The notes: generated from the sequence alone by a model not told the origin. A DNA stretch of 64,000 nt from an uncultured Alphaproteobacteria bacterium (GCA_902526175.1 CABZJY010000001.1:66682-130681), one strand, 5' to 3'; positions 5,402-62,722 are shown, numbered from the stretch's first letter. Translations and numbers: made by a program.

Positions 5402-5405
5402 GAGG

Positions 5406-48529: not shown

Positions 48530-48625
48530 TAATTTACTCCAATTAAAATTTATGTTTCATTTTTATATAAGAATTGTTTTAATCATGCAAAGTAATTATT
48601 TCATATTTATACAAAATATAAAGCT

Positions 48626-49411: not shown

Positions 49412-49414
49412 AAT

Positions 49415-50353
49415 TTATATAATACCAAATCTTTTTTTCAATTCATCTTCTTCTCTTTTTGAAATTTTGATTTTGTCATTTTTCTTACCGTGAATTAAGT
49501 TTTTAATAAACTCAATCCCATGTTTTGATAAACTTATATTTTCTAATCTATGTGAAATAAATGCTTCATAAGTTAGTGGAACCCATTTTTTCAGTATATC
49601 AAGCATTGCTTCCGCATACACTCTTATTTCATATTGAGCATGATAATCAAATCTCAATGATAAAAAATGCATGAGATTATGAAGATCAATCTTCCAATAC
49701 CACTCAGTATAGGCATTTAGTGGAAGAATCATTCGTGCTAGTTCTCTTGCAACACCATTCTTATTTTTATCAATAGTTTTTCCGCTGTCATCTTCATTCA
49801 ACAATTCTCTGTAGTCACTAAATGCATGCTTTGAGTTTTTCTTTATTATATCTAGATATTCTTTTGATTCTATGTCATTAAGTTGTTGTTCTCTTCCTTG
49901 ATTGTTTGATTTTGATTGTGCCTGCATATTTTTTTTGTTTGGTATATAAAACTCACTTTCTAAAATTGAATATCTTGCCGAATATTCGTTTACATTTGCT
50001 GTTCTATGTCTTATCCACTGTCTAGCTACAAAAATTGGTAATTTAACATGAAATTTAATTTCATTCATTTCAAAAGGTGTAGAATGCCTATGACTTAAAA
50101 GGTAATTTATAAGGTTTTTATCTTGATTTATTTTTTTTGTACCCTTCCCATATGAAACTCTAGCAGCTTGAACTATTGAGCTATCATCTCCCATGTAATC
50201 AATTACTCTAATAAAACCTTTATCTAAAACCTTAAAACTTTTATATAAAATATTTTCAATTTTTTTTACTGTAGCTCTTCTAGTGGTATTAGTGTTTTTT
50301 CTGATCTTATTAATTTGATCAAGATTTTTTTTTTTCTGTTCCATCATAAACAT
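49415..50353 (-). CDS. thyX: FAD-dependent thymidylate synthase
   Basis: [19 protein letters not shown] contains the ThyX RHRxxxxxxxS motif. Confidence 0.9.
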
Positions 50354-50449
50354 TAAAACTTTTTTGTTTAAAAAAACAAATACAAAAATAATATTCTTTA
50401 ATTTTTTTTTTTTTTATATATTCTTAAGGTGCTGATTTTTCAGCTATAG

Positions 50450-50720
50450 CAATAAATGTTTGATGAGGAATCGAGGCGGACCCGGGGGCGGTACCCGGCG
50501 CCTCCACCAAAGTTTAAGGGGGCGATATAGGATCGACGTGCGTGGAATTATCAAAACTTTGCTCGGTGTAGTTCCGTCGTTATTGGACTAAAACATAATA
50601 AGTGCCAACGATAATGAAATGGTACTCGCTGCTTAAATATTAAGTAAGCGCGGCTGTGAGACGCCGGGCAACAGAAGTCTCATCGGCAAGGGCGGGCAAT
50701 TGTTCGCCCTTGTTTGTTTT
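50450..50720 (+). ncRNA. ssrA: Two-piece (circularly permuted) tmRNA; the 5' boundary is approximate
   Basis: Acceptor piece ends ...CCGGG-GGCGGTA-CCCGG-CGCCTCC-A-CCA at 50509. The coding piece starts GGGGGCG at 50518 and pairs with CGCCTCC, including a G3:U pair. Tag ORF 50604-50636 GCC AAC GAT AAT GAA ATG GTA CTC GCT GCT TAA encodes ANDNEMVLAA. CTCATCG (50679-50685) pairs with TGATGAG (50461-50467). Ends in a hairpin plus a T-run. Confidence 0.85.
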
Positions 50721-50832
50721 AGGCACAGTCACAAAGGGTTTCAGAGGATTCACTCTTCAACAAATAAGGGAAACAAAAGTGCAATAAGTTCAATGCACTT
50801 TCAATGCACTTTCAATGCACTCTTGTTTGTTC
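50672..50832 (+). repeat. Module M0 (attL-like): native ssrA left side, then core, terminator and right arm with 3x CAATGCAC
   Basis: Core 50672-50720. Right arm AGGCACAGTCACAAAGGGTTTCAGAGGATTCACTC... CAATGCAC at 50791, 50802 and 50813. Ends TCTTGTTTGTTC. Confidence 0.85.
50688..50720 (+). terminator. Rho-independent terminator of ssrA
   Basis: AAGGGCG-GGCAATTGTT-CGCCCTT followed by GTTTGTTTT. Identical copies lie at 53894-53926, 55823-55855 and 57385-57417. Confidence 0.75.
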
Positions 50833-50835
50833 TTT

Positions 50836-52038
50836 TTAATCATTAAGTTCAATAACACGATGGAATTTAAACAATAATTTTTTATGTTTAGGTTTTATTT
50901 TCCATAGAAAATCGTAACCCTTTTTTTTAATAAAATTTTGCCACCCATCTATTTTTACCCATAAAAGATAATCTAACGTAATATCTCCTGTCTCTAACAA
51001 AGTAAAAAAGTTGGTGGAATCTATAGATCCAGTATGTGTTAATGTTTTATAATGAAAACTTTCATTTTCTGATCGCTTCTGACCTGAGGTAATTGCCTTT
51101 ATCCAAAATGTCTCTTTATGTTTCTCCTCTAGTTTTTGGATAAGTTCACTTTTCAACCAGGCTACATCTTCTTCAATAATATTATTAGGTTGGTAGACCT
51201 GTAAGACTTTGTCATCTTTAATATCTAATCTCAAATCATGAGAATTTTTTTTTATTGCACTAATAGTATTGAAGATAACTTTAAAATGATATTTATCACT
51301 TGGTTTACCCCTTTTTTCTACAATGTCTTCTGAACTTTTAAGATTACTGATATTCCAATTTGGAACTTTAGAAAATAAAGTATCTCTAGTTTTAAAATCA
51401 TTTCTACTTGTTTTTATCTCTATTCCTTTATAATCAGGTTTGCCTGAACTATTGGGTTTAATGCCACATAGATTTTCAAATGTTAGACCAATACCTGTAT
51501 CACCTGCTTTAATTGTTTTTACAAATCCCAGTTTTGATATTTCCTTACATTTATCTAAAAGTTCATTTGAAAATTGAGAATAGATAACATTTTTTTTTAT
51601 TAACTCATTAACCCTTTTATCCGTTGAATTAAATAAATTTTCTAAACTAGAAGAACTACAATTAATTACTATTAACTTTTTATCACTTGCCATTAATGCT
51701 AATAAATCTGTAGGTTTTGAATATTTTGATAAGTTATAAATCCATATTCTTGGGTCACCATTTTTGGTATGAGGTCTGTAAAATGAAGTTTTTGTTTTAA
51801 TAATCTCATTTTTTGAAAATAAAAAAGTTTCTGAAATTTTTTTATGCTCCTCACCTTGTTTTTGCGAATGATAATCATGAATTTTATTTTCTTTTAAAAA
51901 ATCTCTAACTGAATGAGTTGCATCTATAATAGATTTACTAATAGCAGTTTCTGTGGGTACTAAAAAAGTAACCTGCTTATCATACCTTTTAAAAACATCT
52001 AATGTCTCAGTTATATTTTTGTTCGAAATAGAAAGCAT
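50836..52038 (-). CDS. Putative type II restriction endonuclease: MutH/MvaI/BcnI-like C-terminal nuclease domain plus an unknown N-terminal domain of about 170 aa (cassette A)
   Basis: GDTGIGLTFENLCGIKPNSSGKPDYKGIEIKTSR matches the G..G...E..G....PD-x4-E-x-K pattern of that nuclease family. Lies immediately downstream of a C5-MTase. Confidence 0.55.
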   Translation of the reverse strand: MLSISNKNITETLDVFKRYDKQVTFLVPTETAISKSIIDATHSVRDFLKENKIHDYHSQKQGEEHKKISETFLFSKNEIIKTKTSFYRPHTKNGDPRIWIYNLSKYSKPTDLLALMASDKKLIVINCSSSSLENLFNSTDKRVNELIKKNVIYSQFSNELLDKCKEISKLGFVKTIKAGDTGIGLTFENLCGIKPNSSGKPDYKGIEIKTSRNDFKTRDTLFSKVPNWNISNLKSSEDIVEKRGKPSDKYHFKVIFNTISAIKKNSHDLRLDIKDDKVLQVYQPNNIIEEDVAWLKSELIQKLEEKHKETFWIKAITSGQKRSENESFHYKTLTHTGSIDSTNFFTLLETGDITLDYLLWVKIDGWQNFIKKKGYDFLWKIKPKHKKLLFKFHRVIELND

Positions 52039-52051
52039 AAAACTATTTGAT

Positions 52052-53326
52052 TTAACTTATTTCATTTCTTAAAATTAAATTTTTAAAAAATTTTCCAATT
52101 TCGTAGGCAAGTTTTGGAGGCACTGCATTTCCTATTTGTGTATATTTTGGAACCTCTCTATCAAAAATAGATGTTCTTGGATTCCCTGCCCGCCTTATTC
52201 CACCTGTGGTTCTTTTTCCGTAAAATTTATACCAATCTGGAAATGTTTGTATTCTTGCCATCTCTCTGACAGTGATTGATCGTGGTTGAGAATAATGAAC
52301 AAAATCGTCTGGCAATGAACAAGTTGTTATCGAAGGTCCACTATTACTCCAAACTTTTGGTAATACTCTTTGAGCAAATTTTTTTGTCTTTAATTCTTCG
52401 GGTATTTTGCCATTATTTTTAATCATAAAATTGAATCTCTTGATAACAGTCTCGCTATGTCTACTATACTGTTGTTCTGATAGATCATTCAAATAACTTG
52501 AATTTCCGTTATTTTTTGACCTAAACATTTTTTGCCATTTATTTTGGGGTGCTTTACTATAAAATTTTGACTCTCCACCGTATTCAAAATCCTTATCTAC
52601 AAGGTCAGACAGAATTTCCTCAATATTAGGATAATCATTGGTTGGTTTTGGAAGAAACCCACCCTCAATTGCATCGATATTCTCTCGATTAACATCCTTA
52701 AAATAATTTTTGTTTAAACCTACTAGTATAACCCTTGGTCTATTTTGGGGAACACCATAATCCTTTGCATGAAGTAATTTATACTTGATTATATAATTAG
52801 GAATTTCTGTAAAAGTATTTAACACATCGTTGAAGATTTCACCTTTGATACCATTCTTTGTCCATCTTGCACTCAATAAACCTCTTACATTTTCAAATAA
52901 AAAAATTTTTGGTTGAATCTTAAAAATCATATATGCCATATCTTGATAAAGATGATTTGAAGGTAATTGAATCTTATCTACGGAATAAGATCGTCTAATT
53001 CCTATTCCAGAGAAACCTTGACACGGTGGTCCACCTACCAATAAATCAACAGGTGTATCTTTTAGATCAAGGTTTAGGTTTTTTTTTATTTCTGACTTAA
53101 ATTTTTCAAAAAATTTCTCATCACTAACAACATCTTTGATGTCATTTGAATTTAATTTTTTTCTCAAATACGGAAATTGATTATCTCTATTGATCAAATA
53201 AGATTCCAATGCATCATTATTAAGTTCATTTACATATATTGGAATAAAACCTGCTTGTTCTAAACCTAACGAGAGTCCTCCACAACCTGCAAATAAATCA
53301 ATTAGAGTAAATTTTTTTTTAGTCAT
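52052..53326 (-). CDS. DNA (cytosine-5)-methyltransferase (cassette A)
   Basis: Motif I DLFAGCGG, IV GGPPCQGFS, VI FENV, VIII PQNRPRV and X GNAVPP. Confidence 0.9.
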   Translation of the reverse strand: MTKKKFTLIDLFAGCGGLSLGLEQAGFIPIYVNELNNDALESYLINRDNQFPYLRKKLNSNDIKDVVSDEKFFEKFKSEIKKNLNLDLKDTPVDLLVGGPPCQGFSGIGIRRSYSVDKIQLPSNHLYQDMAYMIFKIQPKIFLFENVRGLLSARWTKNGIKGEIFNDVLNTFTEIPNYIIKYKLLHAKDYGVPQNRPRVILVGLNKNYFKDVNRENIDAIEGGFLPKPTNDYPNIEEILSDLVDKDFEYGGESKFYSKAPQNKWQKMFRSKNNGNSSYLNDLSEQQYSRHSETVIKRFNFMIKNNGKIPEELKTKKFAQRVLPKVWSNSGPSITTCSLPDDFVHYSQPRSITVREMARIQTFPDWYKFYGKRTTGGIRRAGNPRTSIFDREVPKYTQIGNAVPPKLAYEIGKFFKNLILRNEIS

Positions 53327-53405
53327 TTAATAAATATAACATGTTATTATTCATTACATATTAATCTAACATTGATAGTTTTTTATCTCCAATTTAATTT
53401 GGGGT

Positions 53406-53452
53406 ATAGTAACGACCTACCGTTCTGGAATAGTAACGACCTAATCGTTCTG
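53406..53452. promoter_or_regulatory. Tandem direct repeat (about 23 nt, two copies) in the divergent intergenic region of cassette A; candidate operator
   Basis: ATAGTAACGACCTACCGTTCTG (53406-53427) and ATAGTAACGACCTAATCGTTCTG (53430-53452), between the MTase start (53326) and the mini-ORF start (53523). Confidence 0.4.
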
Positions 53453-53522
53453 TCTCAAACTGTAAAGGTTTCCGTACATTCAAATTTTCTTGGTTAATAA
53501 CAATTAACAAAGGAGAACTAAA

Positions 53523-53639
53523 ATGGTTAAAATCATTTGGAAAGAACTTAAAGAGGATGACCCCATCTTCAAAACTGGATTTATAATCTCAAATCCAAAA
53601 CTAAACTTTAATAAAAAAAGTAAAGGAGATAAAAAATGA
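53523..53639 (+). CDS. Mini-ORF 1 (38 aa), cassette A
   Basis: MVKIIWKELKEDDPIFKTGFIISNPKLNFNKKSKGDKK, preceded by AAAGGAG 7 nt upstream of the ATG. Its stop overlaps the next start (ATGA). Confidence 0.4.
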   Translation: MVKIIWKELKEDDPIFKTGFIISNPKLNFNKKSKGDKK

Positions 53640-53770
53640 AGAAATTCTCTTTTTTCTCAATTCCTAGAAATAAAACAAGGAAGGAAACTATTGAAATAAT
53701 AAAAAATGCTCTCATTGCAAATGGGTGGAAATTTGTTGAAAAATCAGAAAGGAGTAAGATTAAGTCTTGA
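53636..53770 (+). CDS. Mini-ORF 2 (44 aa), cassette A
   Basis: MKKFSFFSIPRNKTRKETIEIIKNALIANGWKFVEKSERSKIKS, with its own AAAGGAG. Translationally coupled to mini-ORF 1. Its stop abuts module M1. Confidence 0.4.
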   Translation: MKKFSFFSIPRNKTRKETIEIIKNALIANGWKFVEKSERSKIKS

Positions 53771-54037
53771 GTCCGTGCAGAAGTCGTGCAGAAAATGACC
53801 TCATTTTCAATGCACTTTTCAATGCACTATTTTCAAAACCCCAAGAAATAAAGGGTTTTAGACCAAACACCGAGACACAGAAGTCTCATCGGCAAGGGCG
53901 GGCAATTGTTCGCCCTTGTTTGTTTTAAGCACAGTCACAAAGGGTTTCAGAGGACTCACTCATCACAAATAAGGGAAATAATAGTGCAATAAAGTACAGA
54001 CACTTTACAGACACTTTACAGACACTTTTGTTTGTTC
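53771..54037 (+). repeat. Module M1 (complete attP-like unit): left arm with 2x CAATGCAC, core, terminator, right arm with 3x TACAGACAC
   Basis: GTCCGTGCAGAAGTCGTGCAGAAAATGAC... CAATGCAC at 53808 and 53820. Core 53878-53926. TACAGACAC at 53995, 54006 and 54017. Ends TTTTGTTTGTTC. Confidence 0.85.
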
Positions 54038-54379
54038 AATATATGTTCTACTCTACATTTTGCAGACCCCAACATACACATCTCAAACACATCAAATGTA
54101 TAAATAGTTATAGATGATTATGGACTATGAGAAAATGTTAAGACACATGAACAATGTTTCTTGTGATATATGGAATGATTTAGTAATAGTTTAATTTATT
54201 GATTTTAAATTGAACACCTAGTCGATTAAACGAACTTTAACGGAAATTATAGGATTTAGAATCCATTCAGTTCTTTTGTAAGTCAATGTGAGTAGGATTT
54301 TTAAATTTATTAACACATAAATTTATAAACTTTTATACAGATCAATTATTAATGGAATAAAAATTGCTATTATGTTGGT

Positions 54380-55225
54380 ATGAAAGATAATGCAATAGGA
54401 TTAGTTAACGCCAAACATGGAAACTTCATGTTTTATAATTACGATTCATTTGTTGGAATGAGTATAAGAGAATACGGTGAGTGGTCGGAAAAATTACTAC
54501 AAAAAATTTTATCATTTATAAAAAAATCGGATTATATAATTGATATTGGTTCACATGTAGGTTTGATGAGTATACCAATTGCTAAAAAAGTTGGAGAAAA
54601 AGGGATGGTTTATTCTTTTGAACCTCAAAGAATGCTTTATAATCTTCAGTGTGGGAATCTCGCTTTAAATAACATAAAGAATATAGAAACTTTTAATGTC
54701 GCAATGGGCAAATCATCAAAACATATTTTACTTGATGATATTGACTATTCTGAAATAGGTAACTTTGGAGGTTTTGGGATAAAAAAAAATTATAATTATT
54801 CAGAATTTATTTCAATAAGAAAAAATAAAAAAATGAAAATAAAAATTCAAAATCTAGATAAATTTCTTAATTTAAAAAAATGTAATTTGATTAAACTAGA
54901 AGCAGAACAACTTGAAACTGAAATTCTAAAAGGAGGAAAAAAGTTTTTGGATAAATTTAGACCTATAATTGTTTCTGAGAATAACCCTAAAAATCCATAT
55001 ACACTTAATAAATATTTAATATCTCAAAACTACAAACTTTTTTGGTTTGAATACAAGTTCTTTAACGAAGATAATTATTTGGTAAATTCAAATAATTATT
55101 TCAAAAATTCAGGTAAATTTTACATATTTGCTTTTCCTAAAGAAAAAAAAATCAAAGACCCAGATATGGTTGAGATTGTTCGACCTGATCAAAAAAACAT
55201 GAATTACAATGGCAACCTTCAGTAA
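54380..55225 (+). CDS. FkbM-family SAM-dependent methyltransferase (cassette B)
   Basis: IIDIGSHVGLMSIPIAKK and VYSFEPQ motifs in the FkbM/Methyltransf_21 pattern. Confidence 0.65.
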   Translation: MKDNAIGLVNAKHGNFMFYNYDSFVGMSIREYGEWSEKLLQKILSFIKKSDYIIDIGSHVGLMSIPIAKKVGEKGMVYSFEPQRMLYNLQCGNLALNNIKNIETFNVAMGKSSKHILLDDIDYSEIGNFGGFGIKKNYNYSEFISIRKNKKMKIKIQNLDKFLNLKKCNLIKLEAEQLETEILKGGKKFLDKFRPIIVSENNPKNPYTLNKYLISQNYKLFWFEYKFFNEDNYLVNSNNYFKNSGKFYIFAFPKEKKIKDPDMVEIVRPDQKNMNYNGNLQ

Positions 55226-55362
55226 TTAAAAAATACTTCTGCATGGGAGTTTTTTTACTCCACAAAATTTGGTTTTACGCTTTTAAAGTTACACTATGAG
55301 AATCGGGATCTCTCCCTTTTGCATCAGTATAAACAAGATATTCAGTATCGATTTTCATTGTA

Positions 55363-55677
55363 TTATCGACTAATTGAACCTTTTAAACTTCCAGTAGAAT
55401 CAAAAATCTTTTTCTTATTTTTAATTCTTCCTTTGTATTTTCCATAAGGGTCATAAATCTTCCCACTACTTTCAATCTTTCCAAAAAACTTTCCATAAGG
55501 TGAGTATATACTTCCTTCTTTTGTTATTTTTCCTTTGTATTTTTCAAAGGGATCAAAAAAAAGACCATCATCAAATTTACCTTTGTATTTTCCATACTTA
55601 TCAAAGATTTTTTCATCTTCTGACTTCACTTCAAAAGATACAAACAAACAAATCAGAATCAGTAATATTTTTTGCAT
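55363..55677 (-). CDS. Small secreted protein with about five tandem [FY]-[DS]-x-[YF]-G-K-[YF]-K-G-[KR] repeats (cassette B)
   Basis: Signal peptide MQKILLILICLFVSFEV. Repeats: FDKYGKYKGKF, FDPFEKYKGKI, YSPYGKFFGKI, YDPYGKYKGRI and FDSTGSLKGSI. Confidence 0.5.
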   Translation of the reverse strand: MQKILLILICLFVSFEVKSEDEKIFDKYGKYKGKFDDGLFFDPFEKYKGKITKEGSIYSPYGKFFGKIESSGKIYDPYGKYKGRIKNKKKIFDSTGSLKGSISR

Positions 55678-55697
55678 AATTTATTGTAGCAGAAAAG

Positions 55698-55972
55698 TAG
55701 TCTGTGCAGAAGTCGTGCAGAAAATGACATCAATTTACAGACACTTTTACAGACACTTTTTAAGAACTCCGCAGAAACAGTGGGTCTTAGACCAAACACC
55801 GAGACACAGAAGTCTCATCGGCAAGGGCGGGCAATTGTTCGCCCTTGTTTGTTTTAGCGAAACTCACAAAGGGTTTCAGAGGATTCACTCAACAGAAAAT
55901 AAGGGAAAATAAAACGAGTAAAAGTGCAGACACACGCAGACACTAATGAGTGTTTTATATTTGTTCTATATG
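55698..55972 (+). repeat. Module M2: left arm with 2x TACAGACAC, core, terminator, right arm with 2x GCAGACAC
   Basis: TAGTCTGTGCAGAAGTCGTGCAGAAAATGAC... TACAGACAC at 55736 and 55748. Core 55807-55855. GCAGACAC at 55926 and 55936. Confidence 0.85.
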
Positions 55973-56054
55973 CATCTTTGGAAAATTCAAATATAATATA
56001 AAATACTTAAAGTAAGTAAAGAGTATATTGGTATAAAACTTGCTCCCTTAATTC

Positions 56055-57218
56055 ATGTATAAAACATCTTATTATGATGATTTTAAATGTATTGGATCAG
56101 AATGTCCTAATTCATGTTGCGTAGGTTGGGAGATAGATCTTGATATTAAAACTTTTCAAAAATATAGAGACTTGCATGATAGTAACATAAATAAATGCAT
56201 TTCTGTGAATCAAAAACCAACATATGACAAATTCGCAAAAATTAAAAATGTCAAGGATCAAAGATGTTCTTTTCTAGACAAAAATAATCTTTGTAATATT
56301 CAAAAAAAATATTCAGAAAAACTTCTATCTCCAACATGTTCAAATTTTCCAAGGCGGAAAGTTGATTTTGGGTCTAAACAATTGTCATCATGTTTACTAA
56401 GTTGTCCTGAAATATCGAGAATTTTTTTTGCAGACAATGAAGAATTTAAAATCATTGATGATGAGAAAAAATTAGTTGATACAAATTTAAAGATTATTCC
56501 TGACGAATTTAGGAACAATCTTTATGCAGTGTCTGGAGAAAGAGTCTTTAATTTCCTATATAAGTTATATAACAGTAGTGATATATCTCTAGAAAAATGT
56601 TTGATGATCACAAATCAAATTATTAACGAATTTTCTAATAAAAAAATAGAACCTCACGAACTTAATGAAGTTTTTAAGTATATAAAAAGTTTTTTTTTAA
56701 ATCATAAAATTGAAAAAAAAATAGATACAGAAATGCAACTAAACTTCTTAAAGAAATTTTTTAGATGTTTTCTAAACAAGAAAATTAATAATAAACTTAG
56801 TGAGTTAATTAACAAACTCTATGCAGATTGTTTTTTAAACAGAGACTTAAAAAAAATTAAATTATTATACGAAAAAAACAAATTACATAATTTCAATCAA
56901 TTTCTAATAAAACATCCAAATATATTTAAAAAATTTTTTATACATGAGTTCTTCGGTAAAACTCAATTGCTCACTAATGAAGATTTTGACTCTAATGACG
57001 GTTTTTATTTAATTTTTTTTATAGCATTGGTCTCTAAACTAATCATAATTTTAAATACTTTGTATAAAGACAAAATAGTCGTTGAGGATTTTATTGAGGT
57101 TATTTCTTTGGTCTCTAGATATTATGGTGGAAAAGATAATCTTGATAAAGACGAAAAAGAATTAGTATCTAAAGATAATCAAACCTTTGTGAATCTTTTT
57201 TATCTATTTTTTGGGTAA
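56055..57218 (+). CDS. FliB-like (flagellin lysine-N-methylase family) Cys-cluster protein (cassette C)
   Basis: The N-terminus YYDDFKCIGSECPNSCCVGWEIDLDIKTFQKYR matches the F.CIG..C...CC.GW.I..D..T..KY signature I recall for FliB/YkgJ-type Cys-cluster proteins. Confidence 0.55.
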   Translation: MYKTSYYDDFKCIGSECPNSCCVGWEIDLDIKTFQKYRDLHDSNINKCISVNQKPTYDKFAKIKNVKDQRCSFLDKNNLCNIQKKYSEKLLSPTCSNFPRRKVDFGSKQLSSCLLSCPEISRIFFADNEEFKIIDDEKKLVDTNLKIIPDEFRNNLYAVSGERVFNFLYKLYNSSDISLEKCLMITNQIINEFSNKKIEPHELNEVFKYIKSFFLNHKIEKKIDTEMQLNFLKKFFRCFLNKKINNKLSELINKLYADCFLNRDLKKIKLLYEKNKLHNFNQFLIKHPNIFKKFFIHEFFGKTQLLTNEDFDSNDGFYLIFFIALVSKLIIILNTLYKDKIVVEDFIEVISLVSRYYGGKDNLDKDEKELVSKDNQTFVNLFYLFFG

Positions 57219-57228
57219 AAAACTAAAG

Positions 57229-57517
57229 AAAAATGTTCCCAGATTACTATGGTTAAAAGTAAGTTCGTTCAGAAGTCGTTCTTAAAAAATAGAAAAACGC
57301 AGACACAAACGCAGACACTATTTTCAAAACCCTCAGAAATTAAGGGTTTTAGACCAAACACCGAGACACAGAAGTCTCATCGGCAAGGGCGGGCAATTGT
57401 TCGCCCTTGTTTGTTTTAGGGAGACTCACAAAGGGTTTCAGAGGATTAACTCTTCAACAAATAAGGGAAACAATAGTGCAATAAAGTACAGACACTTTAC
57501 AGACACTCTACAGACAC
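57229..57517 (+). repeat. Module M3: extended left arm with 2x ACGCAGACAC, core, terminator, right arm with 3x TACAGACAC
   Basis: AAAAATGTTCCCAGATTACTATGGTTAAAAGTAAGTTCGTTCAGAAGTCGTTC... ACGCAGACAC at 57297 and 57309. Core 57369-57417. TACAGACAC at 57487, 57498 and 57509. Confidence 0.85.
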
Positions 57518-57581
57518 TTTTTAAGAATACCAAGAAACAAAGGGACTTAAGTCATTTACCAAGACACAGGAATCTCATCTA
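57518..57581 (+). repeat. Module M3b: decayed left arm plus left half of core only (right end of the empty cassette D)
   Basis: TTTTTAAGAATACCAAGAAACAAAGGGACTTAAGTCATTTACCAAGACACAGGAATCTCATCT aligns with the M2 left arm TTTTTAAGAACTCCGCAGAAACAGTGGGTCTTAGACCAAACACCGAGACACAGAAGTCTCATCGG. Confidence 0.65.
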
Positions 57582-57753
57582 ATTTTTTGAAGTTTAAAAT
57601 GAAATTTGTGTCAATTTTTTCAATGTTAGTATTGAAATAACCCACCTTATAGATTGCTCCAAATTAAAGTATTTCTTAGATTTCAGATTTGATCATTATT
57701 TAAAATTGGCAAGAAACTTTGTTTAATGCTAATTTTCAATTTGAGATTTTAAT

Positions 57754-58509
57754 ATGCCAAAATATGAAATTAAATCTAAAACAAATAATTTAACATTCAA
57801 AAGATCAGATGGATCCCTTGGAGTAGTAGAAATTAGATTTTTTATTGAAGCAATTAAAGAATTTAACAGAATTATAAGAATTTTTGATGATGTAGAAATC
57901 CCGATTGGAGATATTTTAGGACTCAGGAATCTCAGTGCCTTCGTAGGAGAAGTTTTTAATCGATCAGTAAAAAAAATATCGGGTGGGTATATACAAAATA
58001 ATCCCCATCAAGATGGTTATCCCGACCTATTGATTATGGATAATATAGGAAAAAACTTATGGGACAAATTATCATCTCAACACCACGAAAAAGAACCTTT
58101 TAGTCCTTTTGTAGCGGGCGGAATAGAGGTAAAAGCAACATGTGGAGATCTTAAAAGTGGAAAATGGTTTACCGAAAAAAATATTCCTAAACCCATCATT
58201 GGTGACCAAAGATTGGAATGGGTTACGGGTTATAATTGGAAAGCACATCATAGAGAAACAAATAATCTAATTGGTTTGATATGGGATTTTGTAGAAAGAA
58301 AACCCACTATTGTTAGCATAATGTATTCTAATAATCTTAAGGAAGAAGATTGGGGCAAGACTGTAACTCCAAAAGAAGGAGGTGGAAGAACAACTTCTGT
58401 TAGTATAATGAATAAGATGGGAATTAAAAAAATGAAAGATGGAATAATATTATTGATAAATGACCAAAAATATTCAGTCCCTTTCATTAAAAAATTAAGT
58501 AAATATTAA
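57754..58509 (+). CDS. Putative type II restriction endonuclease, PD-(D/E)XK fold (cassette E)
   Basis: GYPDLLIMD ... GGIEVKATCG (PD...ExK). Convergent with the adjacent C5-MTase and overlapping it by 15 nt. Confidence 0.55.
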   Translation: MPKYEIKSKTNNLTFKRSDGSLGVVEIRFFIEAIKEFNRIIRIFDDVEIPIGDILGLRNLSAFVGEVFNRSVKKISGGYIQNNPHQDGYPDLLIMDNIGKNLWDKLSSQHHEKEPFSPFVAGGIEVKATCGDLKSGKWFTEKNIPKPIIGDQRLEWVTGYNWKAHHRETNNLIGLIWDFVERKPTIVSIMYSNNLKEEDWGKTVTPKEGGGRTTSVSIMNKMGIKKMKDGIILLINDQKYSVPFIKKLSKY

Positions 58510-59817
58510 TTGCTTTTGAATTAATGTTTCATTCAAGTCAAAGTTTTTCGAAGCAATACTTTGTAAATTTTTTAAAAGTATTTCTATGATTAATGGAGGA
58601 ACGCTCTCGCCAAGTGTGTCTCTTATAGTTGTTAGTTTAGCATCAACACCTTTGCATGTTTCAAAATAAAAATCTTCATTTGATATTGTATGTAATAAGC
58701 ATGCCTCTCTTATTGAAAGTGACCTATTTTGCTCTGGGTGTATCTTATTATCACTACAAACATAAGGAAAATTTCGAGTTATAGCAGAAGCAGGCAAGTC
58801 CCAATCCATTCTTTTATAAGCACTTGTAAAACCAGTCATAATCTGAATTTTTCCATTTTTTTTAATTGATGGTCTTGGAAGTAAAGCATTACAATTTTTA
58901 CAATAAACTGGAGTATCTCTTGAAGACTTATTAACTCCAAATGAATTTTTATTGCTTGAATGAAGTTTATTTTTGTTAAATCCACAACTTACACATTGAT
59001 TATCAAAAGCAGATTTGTTTAAGGGAGTATTGCTTACCCACCAAAATTTCATTTCATCTAATTTAGGCACTTTATGGAGAGGATCATTAAAGGAATTAGT
59101 TTTAGTCTTACCATCTAATTTTTCTAGACTACCAATTACATCCCTAACAGTTACCCATTTCATTAATCCTTCATTAGAGTTTTTTGAATGTGTCTTCGGG
59201 GGAAAAAAAGAACCATAATTCATTTTATGTTTCTTTATAAGGTCACTCCTAGTAGCAATAGTAATCAATCTCAATCGACGCTGGGGTATACCATAATCAG
59301 CAAATTCTATGACTTTTGGTTCAACTTCATATTCTGTAAGAGTATTTTTTATTATCTCAATAATAGGCAATATTTTTCCATCAAAAGGAATACTTGTATT
59401 GATCATTTCTGATACATTTTCAAAAATTACCGTGGTTGGTTTTAATTCTTTTATAATTTCTAATGCAGGTATTATTAATAAATTTCTAGGATCGATTTTA
59501 GGTCTTCTACCGGCATTTATTTCTGCTAAGAGTTTACCTCTTCCATTTTTAGACATTCCTTGACACGGAGGGGTAACAAGAGCGTAATCTAATTTATGTC
59601 CATTAAGTTTTAATAAAGTTTGTTGTATAATTTCTGATTTCTTTTCATTAATGTCACCCTCAATTAAGTGTGTTTCTGGAAAATTTCGCCGAAATAACTT
59701 ACATCTATCTTCAAGTAACTCATTTGCAACGATAGTCTCAATATTACATCTTTTTAGTGCTATATCACCTATTCCAGAGGATGAAAATAAACTAATCGCT
59801 TTATATCTATTATCCAT
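58495..59817 (-). CDS. DNA (cytosine-5)-methyltransferase (cassette E)
   Basis: Motif I LFSSSGIGD, IV TPPCQGMS, VI FENVSEM, VIII PQRRLRL and X GESVPP. Confidence 0.85.
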   Translation of the reverse strand: MDNRYKAISLFSSSGIGDIALKRCNIETIVANELLEDRCKLFRRNFPETHLIEGDINEKKSEIIQQTLLKLNGHKLDYALVTPPCQGMSKNGRGKLLAEINAGRRPKIDPRNLLIIPALEIIKELKPTTVIFENVSEMINTSIPFDGKILPIIEIIKNTLTEYEVEPKVIEFADYGIPQRRLRLITIATRSDLIKKHKMNYGSFFPPKTHSKNSNEGLMKWVTVRDVIGSLEKLDGKTKTNSFNDPLHKVPKLDEMKFWWVSNTPLNKSAFDNQCVSCGFNKNKLHSSNKNSFGVNKSSRDTPVYCKNCNALLPRPSIKKNGKIQIMTGFTSAYKRMDWDLPASAITRNFPYVCSDNKIHPEQNRSLSIREACLLHTISNEDFYFETCKGVDAKLTTIRDTLGESVPPLIIEILLKNLQSIASKNFDLNETLIQKQLIFT

Positions 59818-59983
59818 TTTGATATCAAAAACTATATCTATATAATTATAAACTAATCAATTATTTTTATCATACATCGTTCATCTTCTTTTTCAAACTA
59901 CACTAACATCTTTGTCCGCCGAAGTTATTAAAAACTTTTACCAAGATGTAGGAAATCAAAAACAAATGGTAAATGACCACATA

Positions 59984-60166
59984 AAATTGTTCCCAGATTA
60001 CTTTGGTTAAAAGTAAGTTTGTTCAGAAGTCGTTCTTAAAAAATAGAAAAACGCAGACACTATTTTCAAAACCGGAAGAAATAAAGTGTTTCAGACCATA
60101 CGCCGAGACACAGAAGTCAAATCGGCAAGGGTTTGAAATTGTTAATTGTTCGCTCTTATTTGTTTT
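59984..60166 (+). repeat. Module M4 (attR-like): left arm with 1x ACGCAGACAC plus a decayed core and terminator, probably the displaced ancestral ssrA 3' end
   Basis: The left arm matches the M3 left arm from AAAATTGTTCCCAGATTACTTTGG. The core reads CAGAAGTCAAATCGGCAAGGGTTTGAAATTGTTAATTGTTCGCTCTTATTTGTTTT, with substitutions and an insertion that break the hairpin. Confidence 0.7.
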
Positions 60167-60215
60167 AGGAAGTCTCGCAAAAATTTCGAAAATATTCTTG
60201 TAATAATATTTGTTT

Positions 60216-61070
60216 TTAAATTACATAACCTATTTTCTCTTTATTGATTTTATTAATTAAATGTTCAGGTTTTTTTGTGAAAAAATGATTTCTCCATATA
60301 GTTCTAGATGATTTTATCTTAGGTTTGGGAATTGTGAGTGGTTTAAATTCTCTGATTAAACCTTTATTAGTCATTAAGTAAGAGTCATAACCAAAATTTA
60401 TCAATAGATTAAATAGTTTATTATTAAAAGGATTATTGATGTTAAACTCTATAATAAGATCAACATTTCTTAATGTTTCCAATATTTTTGTTGATGAAAT
60501 TATTTTATATTCCCACCCTTCAACATCAATTTTAATTAAATAATTTTTTTTTGGATTAATATCTTTAAGTACACTAGAAAAGGGAATTGTACTCACTTCT
60601 ATAGTCTCATATTTAATTTTTTCATAAATTCTTTTCATTTCCTCAATATCTAATGTAGACGAAGATGCAAGTTTAGATGAATTCTTTGCAATAGGTACAT
60701 GGAATTTTGATTTTCCAAATTTATTAGAAATTGCGGTCTCATTAATTTCAAAAAAAATATTATTAAGCTTCATTATTTTTTTTATATATTCAATATTTCT
60801 TGGGTATGCCTCATATGCAGTAGTTGGCCATCCCTTAATTTTTGTTGCATAAAAACTAAATAAACCAATGTTAGCTCCAATATCAAAAAAGTGATCGTAT
60901 CTAAAAAAATCAAAAAAAATTAACATTTCTTCCTCATACGAGTTTGAAATAAATATTTCTATGAGGAGATTAGAGTCCTTAATATTAGTATATTTTGTGC
61001 CTTCAAATATTAGTGAAGGCGGAAATATTCTTAATTTAAATAATATTCTTTTCAATAATGAAGTAAACAT
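60216..61070 (-). CDS. FkbM-family SAM-dependent methyltransferase
   Basis: FFDIGANIGLFSFYATK and AYEAYP motifs. Confidence 0.65.
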   Translation of the reverse strand: MFTSLLKRILFKLRIFPPSLIFEGTKYTNIKDSNLLIEIFISNSYEEEMLIFFDFFRYDHFFDIGANIGLFSFYATKIKGWPTTAYEAYPRNIEYIKKIMKLNNIFFEINETAISNKFGKSKFHVPIAKNSSKLASSSTLDIEEMKRIYEKIKYETIEVSTIPFSSVLKDINPKKNYLIKIDVEGWEYKIISSTKILETLRNVDLIIEFNINNPFNNKLFNLLINFGYDSYLMTNKGLIREFKPLTIPKPKIKSSRTIWRNHFFTKKPEHLINKINKEKIGYVI

Positions 61071-61247
61071 TTTTCAATCTGATGTGTCTGAACAGTAAAC
61101 TATTTTTTTTGTTTTATGAAGATTTTTTTTACTCATCTATTTCATTTCATAAAATCTATTTCTATAATTTTGTCTTTAAGTTATTTATCTATATCTTTTA
61201 AAAATGCGAATAAAATTGTAAAAAAATAATACCAAAATTATATTGAT

Positions 61248-62720
61248 ATGTTGTTTAGTTCCTTTGAGTTTATTTTTATCTTTCTTCCTATAATAATTAT
61301 ACTATTTCTATTTTTTAATAAAAAAAATAGAAATATTTTTTCTTTTGTAATTATTATCTTCTCATTATATTTTTACTCCTTCTCAAATAGTTCTTGGTTA
61401 TTAATATTAGTGTTTTCAATAATATTTAACTTCTTAGTGGGGAAGTCATTAATTAAAAATAGTTCAAAATTAATTCTTTTTTTGGGTATTTTTTCAAATT
61501 TACTTGTATTGATTTATTTTAAATATACAAATTTTTTTTTAGAAAATTTAAACAATTTTTTCTCAATTAAATTAAATTATCTTGATATTATTTTACCTAT
61601 TGGAATATCTTTTTTTACTTTTCAACAAATTGCATTTTTAATTGATGCAAATAAAAAAAAAATTAAAAATCCTTCATTTATCAACTATTCATTATTTGTA
61701 TCTTTTTTTCCACAATTAATTGCAGGACCAATTATTCTTTATGGAGATATAATTAAGCAATTAGAAAAGAAAATTTCTTTTAGGTTTTTTAAGAAAAATT
61801 TTTTTATTGGTTTATTCATATTTAACATTGGTTTATTTAAAAAAATGTGTATTGCAGATACTCTGGAAATATTTTCAAAGCCTATCTTTTACCAAGCAGA
61901 AACTGATCAGACTCTTACTTTTATTGAATGTTGGAGTGGTCTTATTTCATACAGTTTTCAAATCTATTTCGATTTTTCAGGTTATTCAGATATGGCGATA
62001 GGACTTGCAAAAATGTTTGGAATCACATTACCAATAAATTTTAATTCACCTTATAAATCTAATTCAATAATTGAATTCTGGAAAAGGTGGCACATTACTT
62101 TATCGACTTTTTTTAAGCATTATATCTACTTTCCTTTAGGTGGTAATAGAGAAGGTATATTCAGACAATTGTTAAATATTTTGTTTGTTATGACACTTGC
62201 AGGTTTTTGGCATGGAGCTTCTTGGAATTTTATTATTTGGGGAGGACTCCACGGAATATTCATAGTAACTAATCATTTGTGGAGAATTCTTACTAAAAGT
62301 TGGTTTGAGAGTAAAAAATTGAATATTATTAAAGTATTATTAACATTTTTATGTGTTACTGTTGCTTGGGCTTTTTTTAGAGCTGAAACTGTAAATGGTG
62401 CATTAAATATTATATCAGGATGTTTTCCATTCTTTAATTCATCTATATTTTTGGAATATAGTGAGATTGATTATTATCTACCTTACATCTATCAAATTAA
62501 ATGGTTTGTGTTGTTATTTATCGTTATATGGATACTTCCTAATACTAACCAAATTTCAATTTATTTGAAAAGCCCAAGTTTTAAGAGAGGTAGTTTAAGC
62601 ATCTACAAATATAATTTAAATAATAGCTACATACATCTAGTAATTATTTCTTTTTTTCTTTTTATTGCATCATTTCCAGGTAATCAATTAAATCAACCTT
62701 TTATCTATTTTCAATTTTAA
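61248..62720 (+). CDS. MBOAT-family membrane-bound O-acyltransferase (AlgI/DltB-like)
   Basis: FWKRWHITLSTFFKHYIYFPLGGNR and FWHGASWNFIIWG signature blocks with the conserved His; polytopic. Confidence 0.8.
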   Translation: MLFSSFEFIFIFLPIIIILFLFFNKKNRNIFSFVIIIFSLYFYSFSNSSWLLILVFSIIFNFLVGKSLIKNSSKLILFLGIFSNLLVLIYFKYTNFFLENLNNFFSIKLNYLDIILPIGISFFTFQQIAFLIDANKKKIKNPSFINYSLFVSFFPQLIAGPIILYGDIIKQLEKKISFRFFKKNFFIGLFIFNIGLFKKMCIADTLEIFSKPIFYQAETDQTLTFIECWSGLISYSFQIYFDFSGYSDMAIGLAKMFGITLPINFNSPYKSNSIIEFWKRWHITLSTFFKHYIYFPLGGNREGIFRQLLNILFVMTLAGFWHGASWNFIIWGGLHGIFIVTNHLWRILTKSWFESKKLNIIKVLLTFLCVTVAWAFFRAETVNGALNIISGCFPFFNSSIFLEYSEIDYYLPYIYQIKWFVLLFIVIWILPNTNQISIYLKSPSFKRGSLSIYKYNLNNSYIHLVIISFFLFIASFPGNQLNQPFIYFQF

Positions 62721-62722
62721 CT

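What the first reader, a model, noticed from the sequence alone, without database searches (positions are those of the whole stretch)
50672..60166. Tandem array of five integrase-less cassettes accreted at the 3' end of ssrA, separated by attP-like modules of about 265 bp
Seen in sequence:
- The last 49 nt of the tmRNA coding piece, including its terminator, is CAGAAGTCTCATCGGCAAGGGCGGGCAATTGTTCGCCCTTGTTTGTTTT.
- By my reading it recurs letter for letter at 50672, 53878, 55807 and 57369. It recurs in decayed form at 60111-60166 and as a stub at 57558-57580. All copies have the same orientation.
- Each internal copy is embedded in a conserved module: a left arm of about 105 bp, the core, and a right arm of about 110 bp. 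Most arm positions are conserved by eye; I did not compute identity.
- Between the modules lie 1.2-2.9-kb gene segments:
  - A: C5-MTase, MutH/MvaI-like REase and two coupled mini-ORFs
  - B: FkbM MTase and a secreted repeat peptide
  - C: FliB-like Cys-cluster protein
  - D: nothing
  - E: PD-ExK REase and C5-MTase
- The cargo is as AT-rich as the host core genes, while the modules are conspicuously GC-richer.

Established knowledge:
- tRNA and tmRNA 3' ends are classic targets of tyrosine-integrase islands that bring a replacement 3' end.
- Serial integration produces tandem arrays with hybrid att junctions. Examples are accretion of integrase-less CIME-type elements next to streptococcal ICEs, and cargo-only tycheposon arrays at tRNA/tmRNA genes in Prochlorococcus.

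Inference:
- This is such an array in a SAR11-like genome.
- Every unit lacks integrase, excisionase, replication or phage genes, and none exists anywhere in the 64 kb.
- The cassettes must therefore be moved in trans. Functionally this would be a tmRNA-anchored, integron-like cassette platform loaded mainly with DNA methylation and restriction cargo.
Basis: partly seen in the sequence, partly recalled or inferred. Interest (0 to 1): 0.9.

Follow-up and report, generated by a model that had tools for sequence, protein, structure and literature searches.

The report
SAR11 tmRNA-gene cassette array, integrase-deleted
Behind the tmRNA gene of this SAR11-type marine bacterium lies a stack of small gene cassettes, mostly restriction-modification systems, that are stripped-down copies of a rare 9-kb integrating element whose integrase I found in other ocean samples; the kind of thing is known, but it shows how the ocean's most abundant bacterium swaps defence genes.

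Summary
The 49-nt 3' end of ssrA, with its terminator, is exact at 50672, 53878, 55807 and 57369. A decayed copy lies at 60111-60166 and a stub at 57558-57580. Each internal copy sits in a GC-rich module of about 265 bp found nowhere else in the window.

The same arrays occur in at least 19 of 33 SAR11 species-level genomes and in many metagenome contigs. Cassettes are module-bounded units. The same cassette (95-99% nt) sits at different array positions in genomes whose flanks are only 70-80% identical. Genomes with identical ThyX differ by whole cassettes, and empty and occupied sites coexist.

No intact recombinase is in the window or in 126 related loci. New here:
- The P arm abuts the stop codon of a divergent 396-408-aa tyrosine integrase, intact in rare elements of about 9 kb (L139, L140; tandem in L137, L138).
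- 3' remnants of that gene survive in the window (59879-60007).

So the cassettes are integrase-deleted derivatives of an ssrA-targeting integrative element. Arm repeats (two in P, three in P') match within a cassette (14/25 versus 3.2 by chance), and the integrase's N-terminal domain is its most variable part.

Trans-mobilisation is plausible but unproven, and homologous recombination also shuffles the array. It is not an integron. Verdict: new member of a known kind.

The parts
50393..50720 (+). ssrA (permuted, two-piece alpha-proteobacterial tmRNA gene) including its intrinsic terminator. The last 49 nt (50672-50720) are the integration core, so this copy acts as attL.
   Evidence: Rfam RF01849 207.6 bits; ARAGORN tmRNA with tag ANDNEMVLAA; terminator hairpin 50685-50714
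50721..50832 (+). P' arm of cassette A, with three arm-type repeats of CAATGCAC (about 50790-50822)
   Evidence: sequence; alignment A1; P' motif
50836..53326 (-). Cargo of cassette A: MvaI/BcnI-family restriction endonuclease (50836-52038) and C5 cytosine DNA methyltransferase (52052-53326)
   Evidence: Pfam PF15515 E 6e-45 and PF00145 E 8e-62
53523..53770 (+). Two translationally coupled mini-ORFs (38 and 44 aa) abutting the P arm. This ~400-bp segment recurs at 87-95% identity at the right end of cassettes in many other genomes; function unknown.
   Evidence: ORFs; blastn hits in L037, L048, L039, L077, L054, L007 and others; no Pfam family
53771..54037 (+). Module 1: P arm of A (two CAATGCAC repeats at about 53807-53828), exact core 53878-53926, then P' arm of B (three ACAGACAC repeats)
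54129..54189 (+). Remnant of the 5' end of a backbone gene of the full-length element (the 106-aa gene of L139)
   Evidence: blastn 95% over 61 nt; tblastn 94% over 18 aa
54380..55677 (.). Cargo of cassette B: FkbM-family methyltransferase (54380-55225, +) and a 104-aa repeat protein (55363-55677, -)
   Evidence: Pfam PF05050 E 2e-11; weak beta-flower repeat hits
55700..55966 (+). Module 2: P arm of B (two ACAGACAC repeats), exact core 55807-55855, then P' arm of C (two GCAGACAC repeats)
56055..57218 (+). Cargo of cassette C: 387-aa Cys-cluster protein. The whole cassette is 95% identical to one in MAG LRMED-289 and 87% to those in L023 and L067.
   Evidence: weak PF03692 hit, E 0.0017; blastn
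57214..57528 (+). Module 3: the last ~8 codons of the integrase gene (…MFPDYYG*), P arm of C (two CGCAGACAC repeats), exact core 57369-57417, then P' arm of D (three ACAGACAC repeats)
   Evidence: comparison with the L080 and L139 integrase 3' ends
57521..57580 (+). Collapsed cassette D: a decayed proximal P arm plus a truncated core, fused to the P' arm. It is conserved together with E as one unit in L057/L089, L087 and L088.
   Evidence: alignment; blastn 97-98.7% over window 57351-60169
57754..59817 (.). Cargo of cassette E: 251-aa protein of unknown family (57754-58509, +; presumed restriction partner) and C5 cytosine DNA methyltransferase (58495-59817, -)
   Evidence: Pfam PF00145 E 2.6e-39; no family for the 251-aa protein
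59879..60007 (+). Pseudogene remnant: the last ~43 codons of the element's tyrosine integrase
   Evidence: tblastn to P0133 residues 352-394, 56% identity, E 2e-10;
60008..60200 (+). Terminal junction (attR-like): P arm of E (one CGCAGACAC repeat), a decayed core at 60111-60166 with a 7-nt duplication in the terminator, and a decayed P'/B'-like stretch
60216..63793 (.). FkbM methyltransferase (-), MBOAT acyltransferase (+) and GDSL-like lipase (+). This stretch is absent from all 126 related loci except the SAG contig that is 100% identical to the window (L090). It is probably older island cargo, so the island runs past the end of the window.
   Evidence: Pfam; no blastn match beyond 60181 other than L090

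Best explanation
What it is. This is an additive genomic island built by repeated tyrosine-integrase-mediated insertion of circular elements into the 3' end of ssrA.

How it forms. Each element carries an attP with three parts:
- a P arm of about 105 bp with two arm-type repeats;
- a core identical to the last 49 nt of ssrA plus its terminator;
- a P' arm of about 110 bp with up to three arm-type repeats.
Each insertion regenerates an intact ssrA and pushes older inserts outward. This leaves hybrid P-core-P' modules between units.

The autonomous form. It is an element of about 9 kb. Its 396-408-aa integrase gene ends exactly at the P arm. It also carries a small serine recombinase and unknown genes.

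The window's units. They are deletion derivatives that have lost the integrase but keep both arms and carry 1-3 kb of cargo, mostly restriction-modification genes.

What is shown:
- the array anatomy;
- its spread across SAR11;
- module-bounded gain and loss of cassettes;
- horizontal spread of identical cassettes between diverged genomes;
- physical linkage of the integrase family to these arms;
- integrase remnants in the window.

What is inferred:
- strand exchange happens at the left edge of the identity block, in the overlap ACAGAAG between the inverted CGAGAC/GTCTCA sites;
- the arm repeats are bound by the variable N-terminal domain of the integrase;
- integrase-less cassettes are still excised and inserted in trans when a cognate autonomous element is present;
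- homologous recombination between modules adds further shuffling.

The confidence of 0.8 is for the origin and anatomy (an array of integrase-deleted derivatives of this element family). For ongoing trans-mobilisation alone I would give about 0.5.
For: Anatomy:
- Exact cores, arms and terminators.
- The modules occur only in this array.

Spread:
- The core scan of species-representative genomes gave 40 SAR11 tiles from 33 genomes. At least 19 of these show internal P-core-P' modules.
- 37 metagenome contigs carry the P/core junction.

Cassette mobility:
- The flank is 95% identical to L018 and about 70% to the other genomes.
- Yet cassette C is 95.1% identical in LRMED-289, and unit D+E is 97-98.7% identical in L087 and L088, whose flanks are 71-80% identical.
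- D+E is internal there, third in the array, and terminal here.

Polymorphism in one genetic background:
- With one identical ThyX protein, most contigs have an empty site (L091 and six other contigs shown, L093-L099, plus similar places not shown), while L092 carries one cassette ending in P arm, core and the same flank.
- With another identical ThyX, four different arrays occur, including an NgoFVII restriction-modification cassette next to ssrA.

The unit is P'-cargo-P:
- The P repeat motif recurs in the P' arm of the same cassette in 14 of 25 non-redundant cassettes. The permutation mean is 3.2 and the maximum 10 in 10,000.
- Across the same module it recurs in only 8 of 49.

Integrase:
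- A truncated integrase abuts the P arm in L080.
- The family has intact members.
- The intact gene's stop codon lies 3 nt before the distal P arm in L139 and L140, and related int-bearing elements stand in tandem in L137 and L138.
- PHROG phrog_1 'integrase', E 2.4e-25.
- The residues R225, K259, Y337-x-x-R340 and Y372 are invariant.
- Foldseek top hits are all tyrosine recombinases, though weak.
- Only 3' remnants occur in the window and the 126 loci.

Arm specificity:
- The N-terminal domain (residues 14-50) is the most variable part, 0.59 identity against 0.82-0.84 elsewhere.
- Its variants track the arm repeat types in six cases.
Against: - No circular cassette and no excised attP junction of an integrase-less cassette was found.
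- No viral contig or phage carries the core or arms.
- 11 of 25 cassettes have mismatched arms, and the shared D+E unit ends inside the distal P arm. So homologous recombination or deletion also acts on the array.
- In the int-bearing contigs the matching arms flank the same core (3 of 5). This fits attP or same-type tandems, but it is not explained for L137 and L138, whose neighbouring copies differ.
- Intact integrases are rare: about 95 member sequences in 10 clusters, against thousands of SAR11 ThyX clusters.
- The integrase has Y for the usual H and N for the usual H/W, and its activity is untested.
- No excisionase was identified.
- L137 and L138 are long-read contigs with frameshifts.
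Confidence: 0.8

Rival explanations
1. Fossil array shuffled only by homologous recombination. The cassettes came in long ago with integrases and are now immobile. Present-day gain, loss and exchange happen by transformation or other DNA entry, followed by double crossover between the conserved 265-bp modules, and by deletion between direct repeats.
For: - SAR11 is known for very high recombination (background knowledge).
- 11 of 25 cassettes have mismatched arms.
- The shared D+E unit breaks inside the distal P arm, and the window's P arm differs from the one in L057 and L087.
- D is a P'-P collapse that looks like a repeat-mediated deletion.
- No circles were found, and intact integrases are rare.
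Against: - The arms are more conserved than the neighbouring core genes (modules 75-90% against flanks of about 70%).
- They keep the 2+3 repeat layout, with the two ends of a cassette matching far above chance. Drift plus homologous recombination would not maintain this.
- Intact cognate integrases with matching arms exist today.
- Empty and occupied sites differ exactly at the core.
Confidence: 0.3
2. Integron-like platform: a resident recombinase next to a fixed attachment site captures promoterless cassettes that carry their own folded recombination sites.
For: Ordered array of small, mostly one- or two-gene cassettes at one locus; the newest insert appears next to the anchor gene.
Against: - No recombinase gene lies next to ssrA in the window or in any of the 126 loci.
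- The sites are 265-bp attP-type modules with arm repeats and a tmRNA-derived core, not attC hairpins.
- Cargo genes lie on both strands, so a single platform promoter cannot serve them.
- The integrase is carried by the mobile element itself.
Confidence: 0.03
3. Remnants of prophages or phage satellites: the cassettes are what is left of pelagiphages or capsid-hijacking satellites that integrate at ssrA.
For: - Temperate pelagiphages integrate at SAR11 tRNA genes (PMC8477408; bioRxiv 10.1101/410191).
- Pelagibacter satellites and tycheposon-like elements with tyrosine recombinases occur in vesicles and virus-like particles (PMC11876622).
Against: - The core and the P' and distal P-arm motifs are absent from 2.9 million viral contigs (four exact-pattern scans), and a whole module finds nothing in 50,697 phage records by blastn.
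- The 9-kb element has no PHROG structural, packaging or replication hits, only the integrase and an invertase-type serine recombinase.
Confidence: 0.07
4. Generic dispersed repeat (REP/MITE-like) that happens to resemble the ssrA end.
For: Short, GC-rich, structured repeats in an AT-rich genome.
Against: - All copies in the window lie in one orientation directly behind ssrA.
- In the loci of other genomes that show the sequence upstream of the array, it starts at ssrA.
- The repeat begins exactly where identity with ssrA begins.
Confidence: 0.01

Closest known systems
tRNA/tmRNA-targeting tyrosine-integrase genomic islands (Williams 2002 classification; Islander/TIGER islands)
   Same: - The element inserts in the 3' part of a t(m)RNA gene and brings a replacement 3' end.
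- It is flanked by direct repeats of that end.
- The integrase gene lies next to the att site.
- Serial insertion gives tandem arrays.
   Different: - The target is the 3' end of the coding piece of a permuted two-piece tmRNA gene.
- In almost all copies the integrase is gone while both complete arms persist.
- The units are very small (0.7-5.4 kb).
CIMEs (cis-mobilisable elements) accreted next to ICESt1/ICESt3 in Streptococcus thermophilus
   Same: Integrase-less DNA flanked by functional-looking att sites, derived by deletion from an autonomous integrative element, standing in tandem at the same site, and proposed to use the integrase of a related element.
   Different: - The helper here is a small, apparently non-conjugative 9-kb element, not an ICE.
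- Arrays hold several cassettes and are near-universal in the clade.
- Trans-mobilisation has been shown by experiment for CIMEs but not here.
Tycheposons and their island remnants in Prochlorococcus (Hackl et al., bioRxiv 10.1101/2020.12.28.424599); tycheposon-like elements reported in Pelagibacter particles (PMC11876622)
   Same: - Host is a streamlined marine bacterium.
- Elements are tyrosine-recombinase elements at a few tRNA genes and the tmRNA gene.
- Tandem insertions are separated by partial t(m)RNA copies.
- Degenerate remnants build additive islands.
- Small serine recombinases occur in some elements.
   Different: - No primase, helicase or capsid hallmark genes were detected in the 9-kb element.
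- The relationship of its integrase to tycheposon integrases was not tested.
- Here the remnants are ordered, arm-complete cassettes rather than scattered fragments.
Additive flexible genomic islands of aquatic bacteria (for example the tRNA-Lys island of 'Ca. Methylopumilus', PMC10872708; SAR11 islands with partial tRNA repeats, PMC11796062)
   Same: A variable island next to a t(m)RNA gene, subdivided by repeats of the gene's 3' end that mark cassette insertions. The SAR11 paper notes one island linked to the tmRNA gene and no canonical mobile elements.
   Different: Those reports give only the short repeat. They describe no arms, arm repeats, cognate integrase or autonomous element.
Integrons
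   Same: Ordered array of small cassettes at one chromosomal site, with new cassettes entering at the proximal end.
   Different: No resident IntI, attI, Pc or attC sites. The recombination sites are double-stranded, lambda-type attP sites, and the integrase travels with the element.

Membership tests
t(m)RNA-targeting tyrosine-integrase integrative element / genomic island | The insert lies in the 3' part of a t(m)RNA gene and restores it with an identical segment | tested here: met
   An exact 49-nt copy of the ssrA 3' end plus terminator follows every unit, and ssrA itself is intact
t(m)RNA-targeting tyrosine-integrase integrative element / genomic island | Empty and occupied sites that differ precisely at the repeat | tested here: met
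   L091 and L093-L099 are empty, while L092 is occupied in the same ThyX background. The flank resumes within ~10 nt of the start of the second core (blastn). L092 has a 10-N scaffold gap inside ssrA.
t(m)RNA-targeting tyrosine-integrase integrative element / genomic island | Encodes a tyrosine recombinase next to the att site | tested here: not met
   In the window there are only 3' remnants (59879-60007 and about 57270-57293). The feature is met in the related autonomous elements L139, L140, L137 and L138. The window units are therefore derivatives, not autonomous members.
t(m)RNA-targeting tyrosine-integrase integrative element / genomic island | Catalytic tyrosine-recombinase residues in the integrase | tested here: inconclusive
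   R225, K259/262, R340 and Y372 are invariant, but Y337 replaces H and N362 replaces H/W. PHROG integrase E 2.4e-25; Pfam PF00589 only weak; the structural model is poor.
CIME-type non-autonomous integrative element | Flanked by att sites of an integrative element but lacking recombination genes | tested here: met
   Both arms and cores are present; there is no intact recombinase
CIME-type non-autonomous integrative element | Excision and integration catalysed in trans by the integrase of a related element | not testable with these tools
   Indirect evidence only: arm conservation, arm matching, identical cassettes in diverged genomes
Tycheposon | Tyrosine recombinase of the tycheposon clades | not tested
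Tycheposon | Replication or packaging hallmark genes (primase/helicase, or PICI-like capsid genes) | tested here: not met
   Pfam and PHROGs on ten genes of L139 found only the integrase and a 196-aa invertase-type serine recombinase; several genes remain unknown
Integron | Resident IntI gene with adjacent attI and Pc, and attC sites on the cassettes | tested here: not met
   No recombinase lies next to ssrA in the window or the 126 loci. The sites are attP-type modules.
Additive flexible genomic island | Variable island next to a t(m)RNA gene, subdivided by repeats of its 3' end, with cassette content varying between strains | tested here: met

The most novel reading that the evidence does not exclude
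SAR11 may run a two-tier, site-specific cassette exchange system at ssrA. Rare autonomous 9-kb elements supply tyrosine integrases in several arm-specificity classes. A much larger population of arm-complete, integrase-less mini-cassettes, mostly restriction-modification and surface-modification genes, is excised and re-inserted in trans by those integrases. This would be the site-specific-recombinase counterpart of autonomous transposons and MITEs. It would make the tmRNA locus the main defence-gene marketplace of a bacterium long described as free of mobile elements.
Probability: 0.35. Interest if true: 0.8.

Novelty: new member of a known kind. Interest (0 to 1): 0.6.

Why it matters
SAR11 is the most abundant bacterial group in the ocean and is usually described as lacking mobile elements. 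How its restriction-modification and surface genes turn over is an open question.

This locus gives a concrete, sequence-defined mechanism:
- a specific attachment site in ssrA;
- complete attP arms;
- a candidate integrase family that standard Pfam screens barely detect;
- a widespread set of cassettes that clearly cross between lineages about 70% identical in their core genes.

It offers testable reagents (integrase P0288/P0133, the 265-bp module, the 49-nt core). These could also serve as a site-specific integration tool for a clade that is hard to manipulate genetically.

Tried and rejected
- Viral contigs. Four exact scans (core 26-mer, core 21-mer, P' 19-mer, distal P 21-mer) gave nothing.
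- Degenerate arm-repeat pattern. It hit two unrelated iteron-bearing contigs of 36-41% GC (L120, L121), judged to be chance.
- Phage records. blastn of a whole module against 50,697 records gave no match.
- Pfam screens for integrases on 103 cluster-representative ORFs showed none. I later learned that Pfam barely detects this family, so these screens were insensitive. They were replaced by tblastn with the intact integrase.
- Local phmmer/HMM with lambda Int, two pelagiphage integrases and XerD gave no hits. The controls did not cross-detect each other, so this test is uninformative. A simple catalytic-motif regex is what exposed the L080 fragment.
- Circular contigs. No terminal overlaps were found.
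- Exact-protein look-ups for three window proteins. Two were not on record.
- Excisionase. None is recognisable among the small ORFs.
- Partner of the cassette-E methyltransferase. No family or solved relative was found.
- AlphaFold model of the integrase. Too poor (pLDDT 55) for a firm fold assignment.
- XerCD/dif-type sites. No dif-like sequence is apparent in the core on inspection; this was not searched formally. The arm repeats point to a lambda-type integrase instead.

Full report
**1.

The 49-mer is present exactly four times on the + strand, at 50672, 53878, 55807 and 57369. None is expected by chance.

The first copy is the end of a permuted alpha-proteobacterial tmRNA gene (Rfam RF01849, 50393-50685, 207.6 bits; ARAGORN). 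The 49-mer consists of the last 14 nt of the RNA model plus the intrinsic terminator hairpin, and that hairpin is repeated in each exact copy.

Two decayed copies exist:
- 60111-60166, preceded by a recognisable P arm.
- 57558-57580, a stub made of a decayed proximal P arm and about 15 nt of core, fused directly to the preceding P' arm.

The arm motifs occur nowhere else in the 64 kb. Modules have 39-42% G+C, cargo 24-30% and the window 28.6%.

The 'PD-ExK' label for the 251-aa protein could not be verified.

**2. The array is a general feature of SAR11**

An exact scan for the core in one genome per species returned 45 tiles. Forty of them come from 33 Pelagibacterales-type SAGs and MAGs, and at least 19 of those genomes show one to three internal P-core-P' modules. 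A scan of metagenome contigs for the P/core junction gave 37 more loci.

All internal modules share one plan:
- P arm: a distal repeated element CGTGCAGAA ×2, then two copies of an 8-9-nt motif that differs between modules, a T-run, GAGAA and a short CCC…GGG hairpin, then TTAGACCA(A/T)ACACCGAGACA.
- Core.
- P' arm: TAGGGAGACTCACAAAGGGTTTCAGAGGATTCACTC…AAATAAGGGAAA…, then one to three copies of a variable motif, then TTTTGTTTGTTC.

Two sites in P and three in P' is the layout of lambda attP (background knowledge).

**3. The cassette, not the module, is the unit**

In 25 non-redundant cassettes from chromosomal arrays, the P motif recurs in the P' arm at the other end of the same cassette in 14 cases. 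The permuted expectation is 3.2, with a maximum of 10 in 10,000. The P and P' arms on either side of one core match in only 8 of 49 cases (earlier version).

In the window the cassettes match as follows:
- A: CAATGCAC at both ends.
- B: ACAGACAC at both ends.
- C: GCAGACAC at both ends.

This is what serial insertion of circles with a P-core-P' site predicts. It argues against a self-contained repeat.

**4. Cassettes move between lineages and vary within them**

The window's flank (48000-50832) is 95% identical to L018 and about 70% to every other genome. L018 already carries a different first cassette.

Two cassettes cross lineages:
- Cassette C (55693-57509) is 95.1% identical in LRMED-289 and 87% in L023 and L067. 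It is second in the L023 array and third here.
- Unit D+E (57351-60169) is 97-98.7% identical in L087 and L088. Their ThyX/ssrA flanks are 71-80% identical. There the unit is internal and followed by an intact core and further cassettes.

Look-ups with identical ThyX proteins show polymorphism within a lineage:
- For P0013, seven contigs shown (L091, L093-L099), plus similar places not shown, have ssrA followed directly by the conserved flank. One (L092) has a cassette ending in P arm, core and the same flank. L092 has a scaffold gap inside ssrA.
- For P0055, four different arrays occur. One has an NgoFVII-type restriction-modification pair inserted next to ssrA.

Short-read contigs often break at ssrA, as expected for a polymorphic repeat.

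Across 126 SAR11 loci (843 kb) I counted 161 cores and 51 complete cassettes of 264-5360 bp, median 1.5 kb.

Cargo is rich in restriction-modification and related genes:
- Restriction and modification: MvaI/BcnI, Tsp45I, SacI, BglII, EcoRI methylase, NgoFVII, Type ISP, Mrr, GmrSD, SRA-HNH.
- Methyltransferases, acyl- and sulfotransferases.
- Small secreted peptides.

**5. Who moves them**

No intact recombinase is present in the window's array ORFs. The precomputed annotations of all looked-up arrays show none either.

A catalytic-motif regex picked out a 154-aa ORF in metagenome contig L080. It matches Pfam Phage_integrase weakly (E 0.001), and its stop codon lies inside the distal P arm.

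Its relatives in the word-indexed database are all fragments. A profile search of 1.84 billion representatives then found one intact 396-aa protein, P0133 (E 8e-90); the next full-length hits reach only about E 1e-29. A search with P0133 gave ten clusters of full-length proteins of 396-408 aa, 67-90% identical, about 95 sequences in all.

Their contexts settle the link:
- In L139 and L140 the intact gene (P0288) ends with TAG 3 nt before the distal P arm. It is followed by two GCAATACAC repeats, the core, and a P' arm with three GCAATACAC repeats.
- In L137 and L138, elements of about 9 kb of the form core-P'-genes-integrase-P-core stand in tandem. Neighbouring copies are 67-96% identical, so they are different elements and not concatemers.

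The protein matches PHROG phrog_1 'integrase' over its whole length (E 2.4e-25). It is barely seen by Pfam, which explains why standard screens report no integrase.

Invariant residues fit a tyrosine recombinase: R225, K259/262, Y337-x-x-R340 and Y372, with Y and N in place of the two usual histidines. The AlphaFold model is poor (pLDDT 55), although all top Foldseek hits are tyrosine recombinases.

A tblastn re-screen of the window and all 126 loci with the intact protein finds only 3' remnants of 22-153 codons next to P arms. One lies at window 59879-60007. The last ~8 codons also sit at the right end of cassette C, and the 5' end of an element backbone gene sits at 54129-54189.

The window's cassettes are therefore deletion derivatives of this element family.

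**6. Specificity classes**

Within the integrase family the N-terminal residues 14-50 are the least conserved part: 0.59 mean pairwise identity against 0.82-0.84 for the core-binding and catalytic regions. This stretch lies in the only confidently modelled segment of the protein (residues 1-70, pLDDT 72-86), predicted as four strands followed by a helix, which resembles arm-binding domains.

In six integrase/P-arm pairs, similar N-domains go with similar repeats:
- …YWYVRF… with CAATACAC, twice.
- …WYVE(F/I)… with G(C/T)GATACAC, twice.
- …YWYFSF… with GCACACAC.
- …YYNILF… with GCATACAC.

This is anecdotal. It does fit the reading that the variable repeats are arm-type sites read by a diversifying domain.

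**7. Where the exchange probably happens (inference)**

Identity between ssrA and the modules starts sharply at ACAGAAGTC. In the internal modules this point lies in the spacer of an inverted repeat, CGAGAC-ACAGAA-GTCTCA.

On the right, identity with the empty-site flank runs about 11-28 nt past the terminator, depending on lineage. The flank of the 'empty' site is itself P'-like but degenerate. Empty sites may therefore be products of excision or deletion rather than pristine sites.

**8. What remains open**

- I found no circular form of an integrase-less cassette.
- I found no trace in viral collections.
- I found no excisionase.
- Eleven of 25 cassettes have mismatched arms. The shared D+E unit ends inside the distal P arm, with different arm repeats in the window and in L057/L087. 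So homologous recombination and deletion also shape the arrays.
- In the int-bearing contigs, matching arms flank the same core. This is expected for an attP, so L139 may be a linearised circle of about 9.0 kb, close to the 8,958-bp element of L137. It is unexplained for the heterogeneous tandems.
- Intact integrases are rare relative to SAR11 genomes.

**9. Comparison with the literature**

- A SAR11 pangenome study noted that one island is linked to the tmRNA gene, that partial tRNA repeats mark cassette insertions, that no canonical mobile elements were found, and that only one integrase was seen (PMC11796062).
- Additive islands with repeats of a tRNA 3' end are described in Methylophilaceae (PMC10872708).
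- Prochlorococcus tycheposons insert at six tRNA genes and the tmRNA gene, stack in tandem and leave remnants (bioRxiv 10.1101/2020.12.28.424599).
- Tyrosine-recombinase elements of Pelagibacter occur in vesicles and virus-like particles (PMC11876622).
- Known temperate pelagiphages use tRNA genes only (PMC8477408).

I found no description of this ssrA module, its arm repeats or this integrase family. The locus is thus a new, well-defined member of a known kind of system, not a new kind. 'Integron-like' is an analogy that fails every defining test.

Noticed in passing
L028:5814-6688 (also L007:1086-1971, L015, L013, L032, L034, L035): The commonest cassette in other SAR11 genomes is only about 870-900 bp. 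It encodes a ~54-aa signal-peptide protein with a highly acidic Glu/Lys/Thr tail and its own terminator, preceded by ~350 nt of conserved non-coding sequence that could be a leader or small RNA.
   Followed up: partly
L139:7894-8484 (-); L137:7074-8156 and 16583-17173; L138:7981-8572 and 17538-17975: Each ~9-kb integrase-bearing element also carries a small serine recombinase (Resolvase domain E 2e-36; PHROG 'DNA invertase'). Its role is unknown; it could resolve multimers, invert a segment or act as a second integration route.
   Followed up: partly
L088:4136-6092 (also L044:4939-6940, L075): A recurrent 5.4-kb cassette carries an unknown 385-400-aa protein overlapping a 268-aa PD-(D/E)XK/Cas4-like nuclease, plus a T5orf172-domain protein. 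It may be a defence or recombination module.
   Followed up: partly
window 53380-53450: Direct repeat AGTAACGACCTA ×2 just upstream of the two coupled mini-ORFs (38 and 44 aa) that end at the P arm. The whole ~400-bp segment is conserved at 87-95% at the right end of cassettes with unrelated cargo, as if it were backbone rather than cargo.
   Followed up: partly
window 60216-64000: The FkbM methyltransferase, MBOAT acyltransferase and GDSL-like lipase downstream of the last decayed core have no counterpart in any of the 126 related loci except the SAG contig identical to the window (L090). The conserved downstream flank seen elsewhere (small membrane protein, DUF3299, FtsX/ABC, Fur, TonB receptor) is not reached within the window.
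   Followed up: partly
window 5404-5478 (tRNA-Phe, -) and 13341-13414 (tRNA-Thr, +): Two tRNA genes lie in the window. No partial copies of 16 nt or more occur elsewhere in the 64 kb, so there is no sign of similar cassette accretion at these genes here.
   Followed up: yes
L120:~6920 and L121:~3163 (IMG/VR contigs): Unrelated viral contigs (36-41% GC) carry iterons GGGGTTACA(C/T)TTT in a 3+2 arrangement around TTTTTGAGAAAC and a hairpin. This superficially resembles the P-arm layout and was judged to be a chance hit of the degenerate pattern.
   Followed up: partly
L122-L129, L132-L135: Many short-read contigs from different samples end within ssrA, about 150 nt from thyX. This suggests that assemblies systematically break at this polymorphic repeat array, so the island is under-represented in short-read MAGs.
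   Followed up: no
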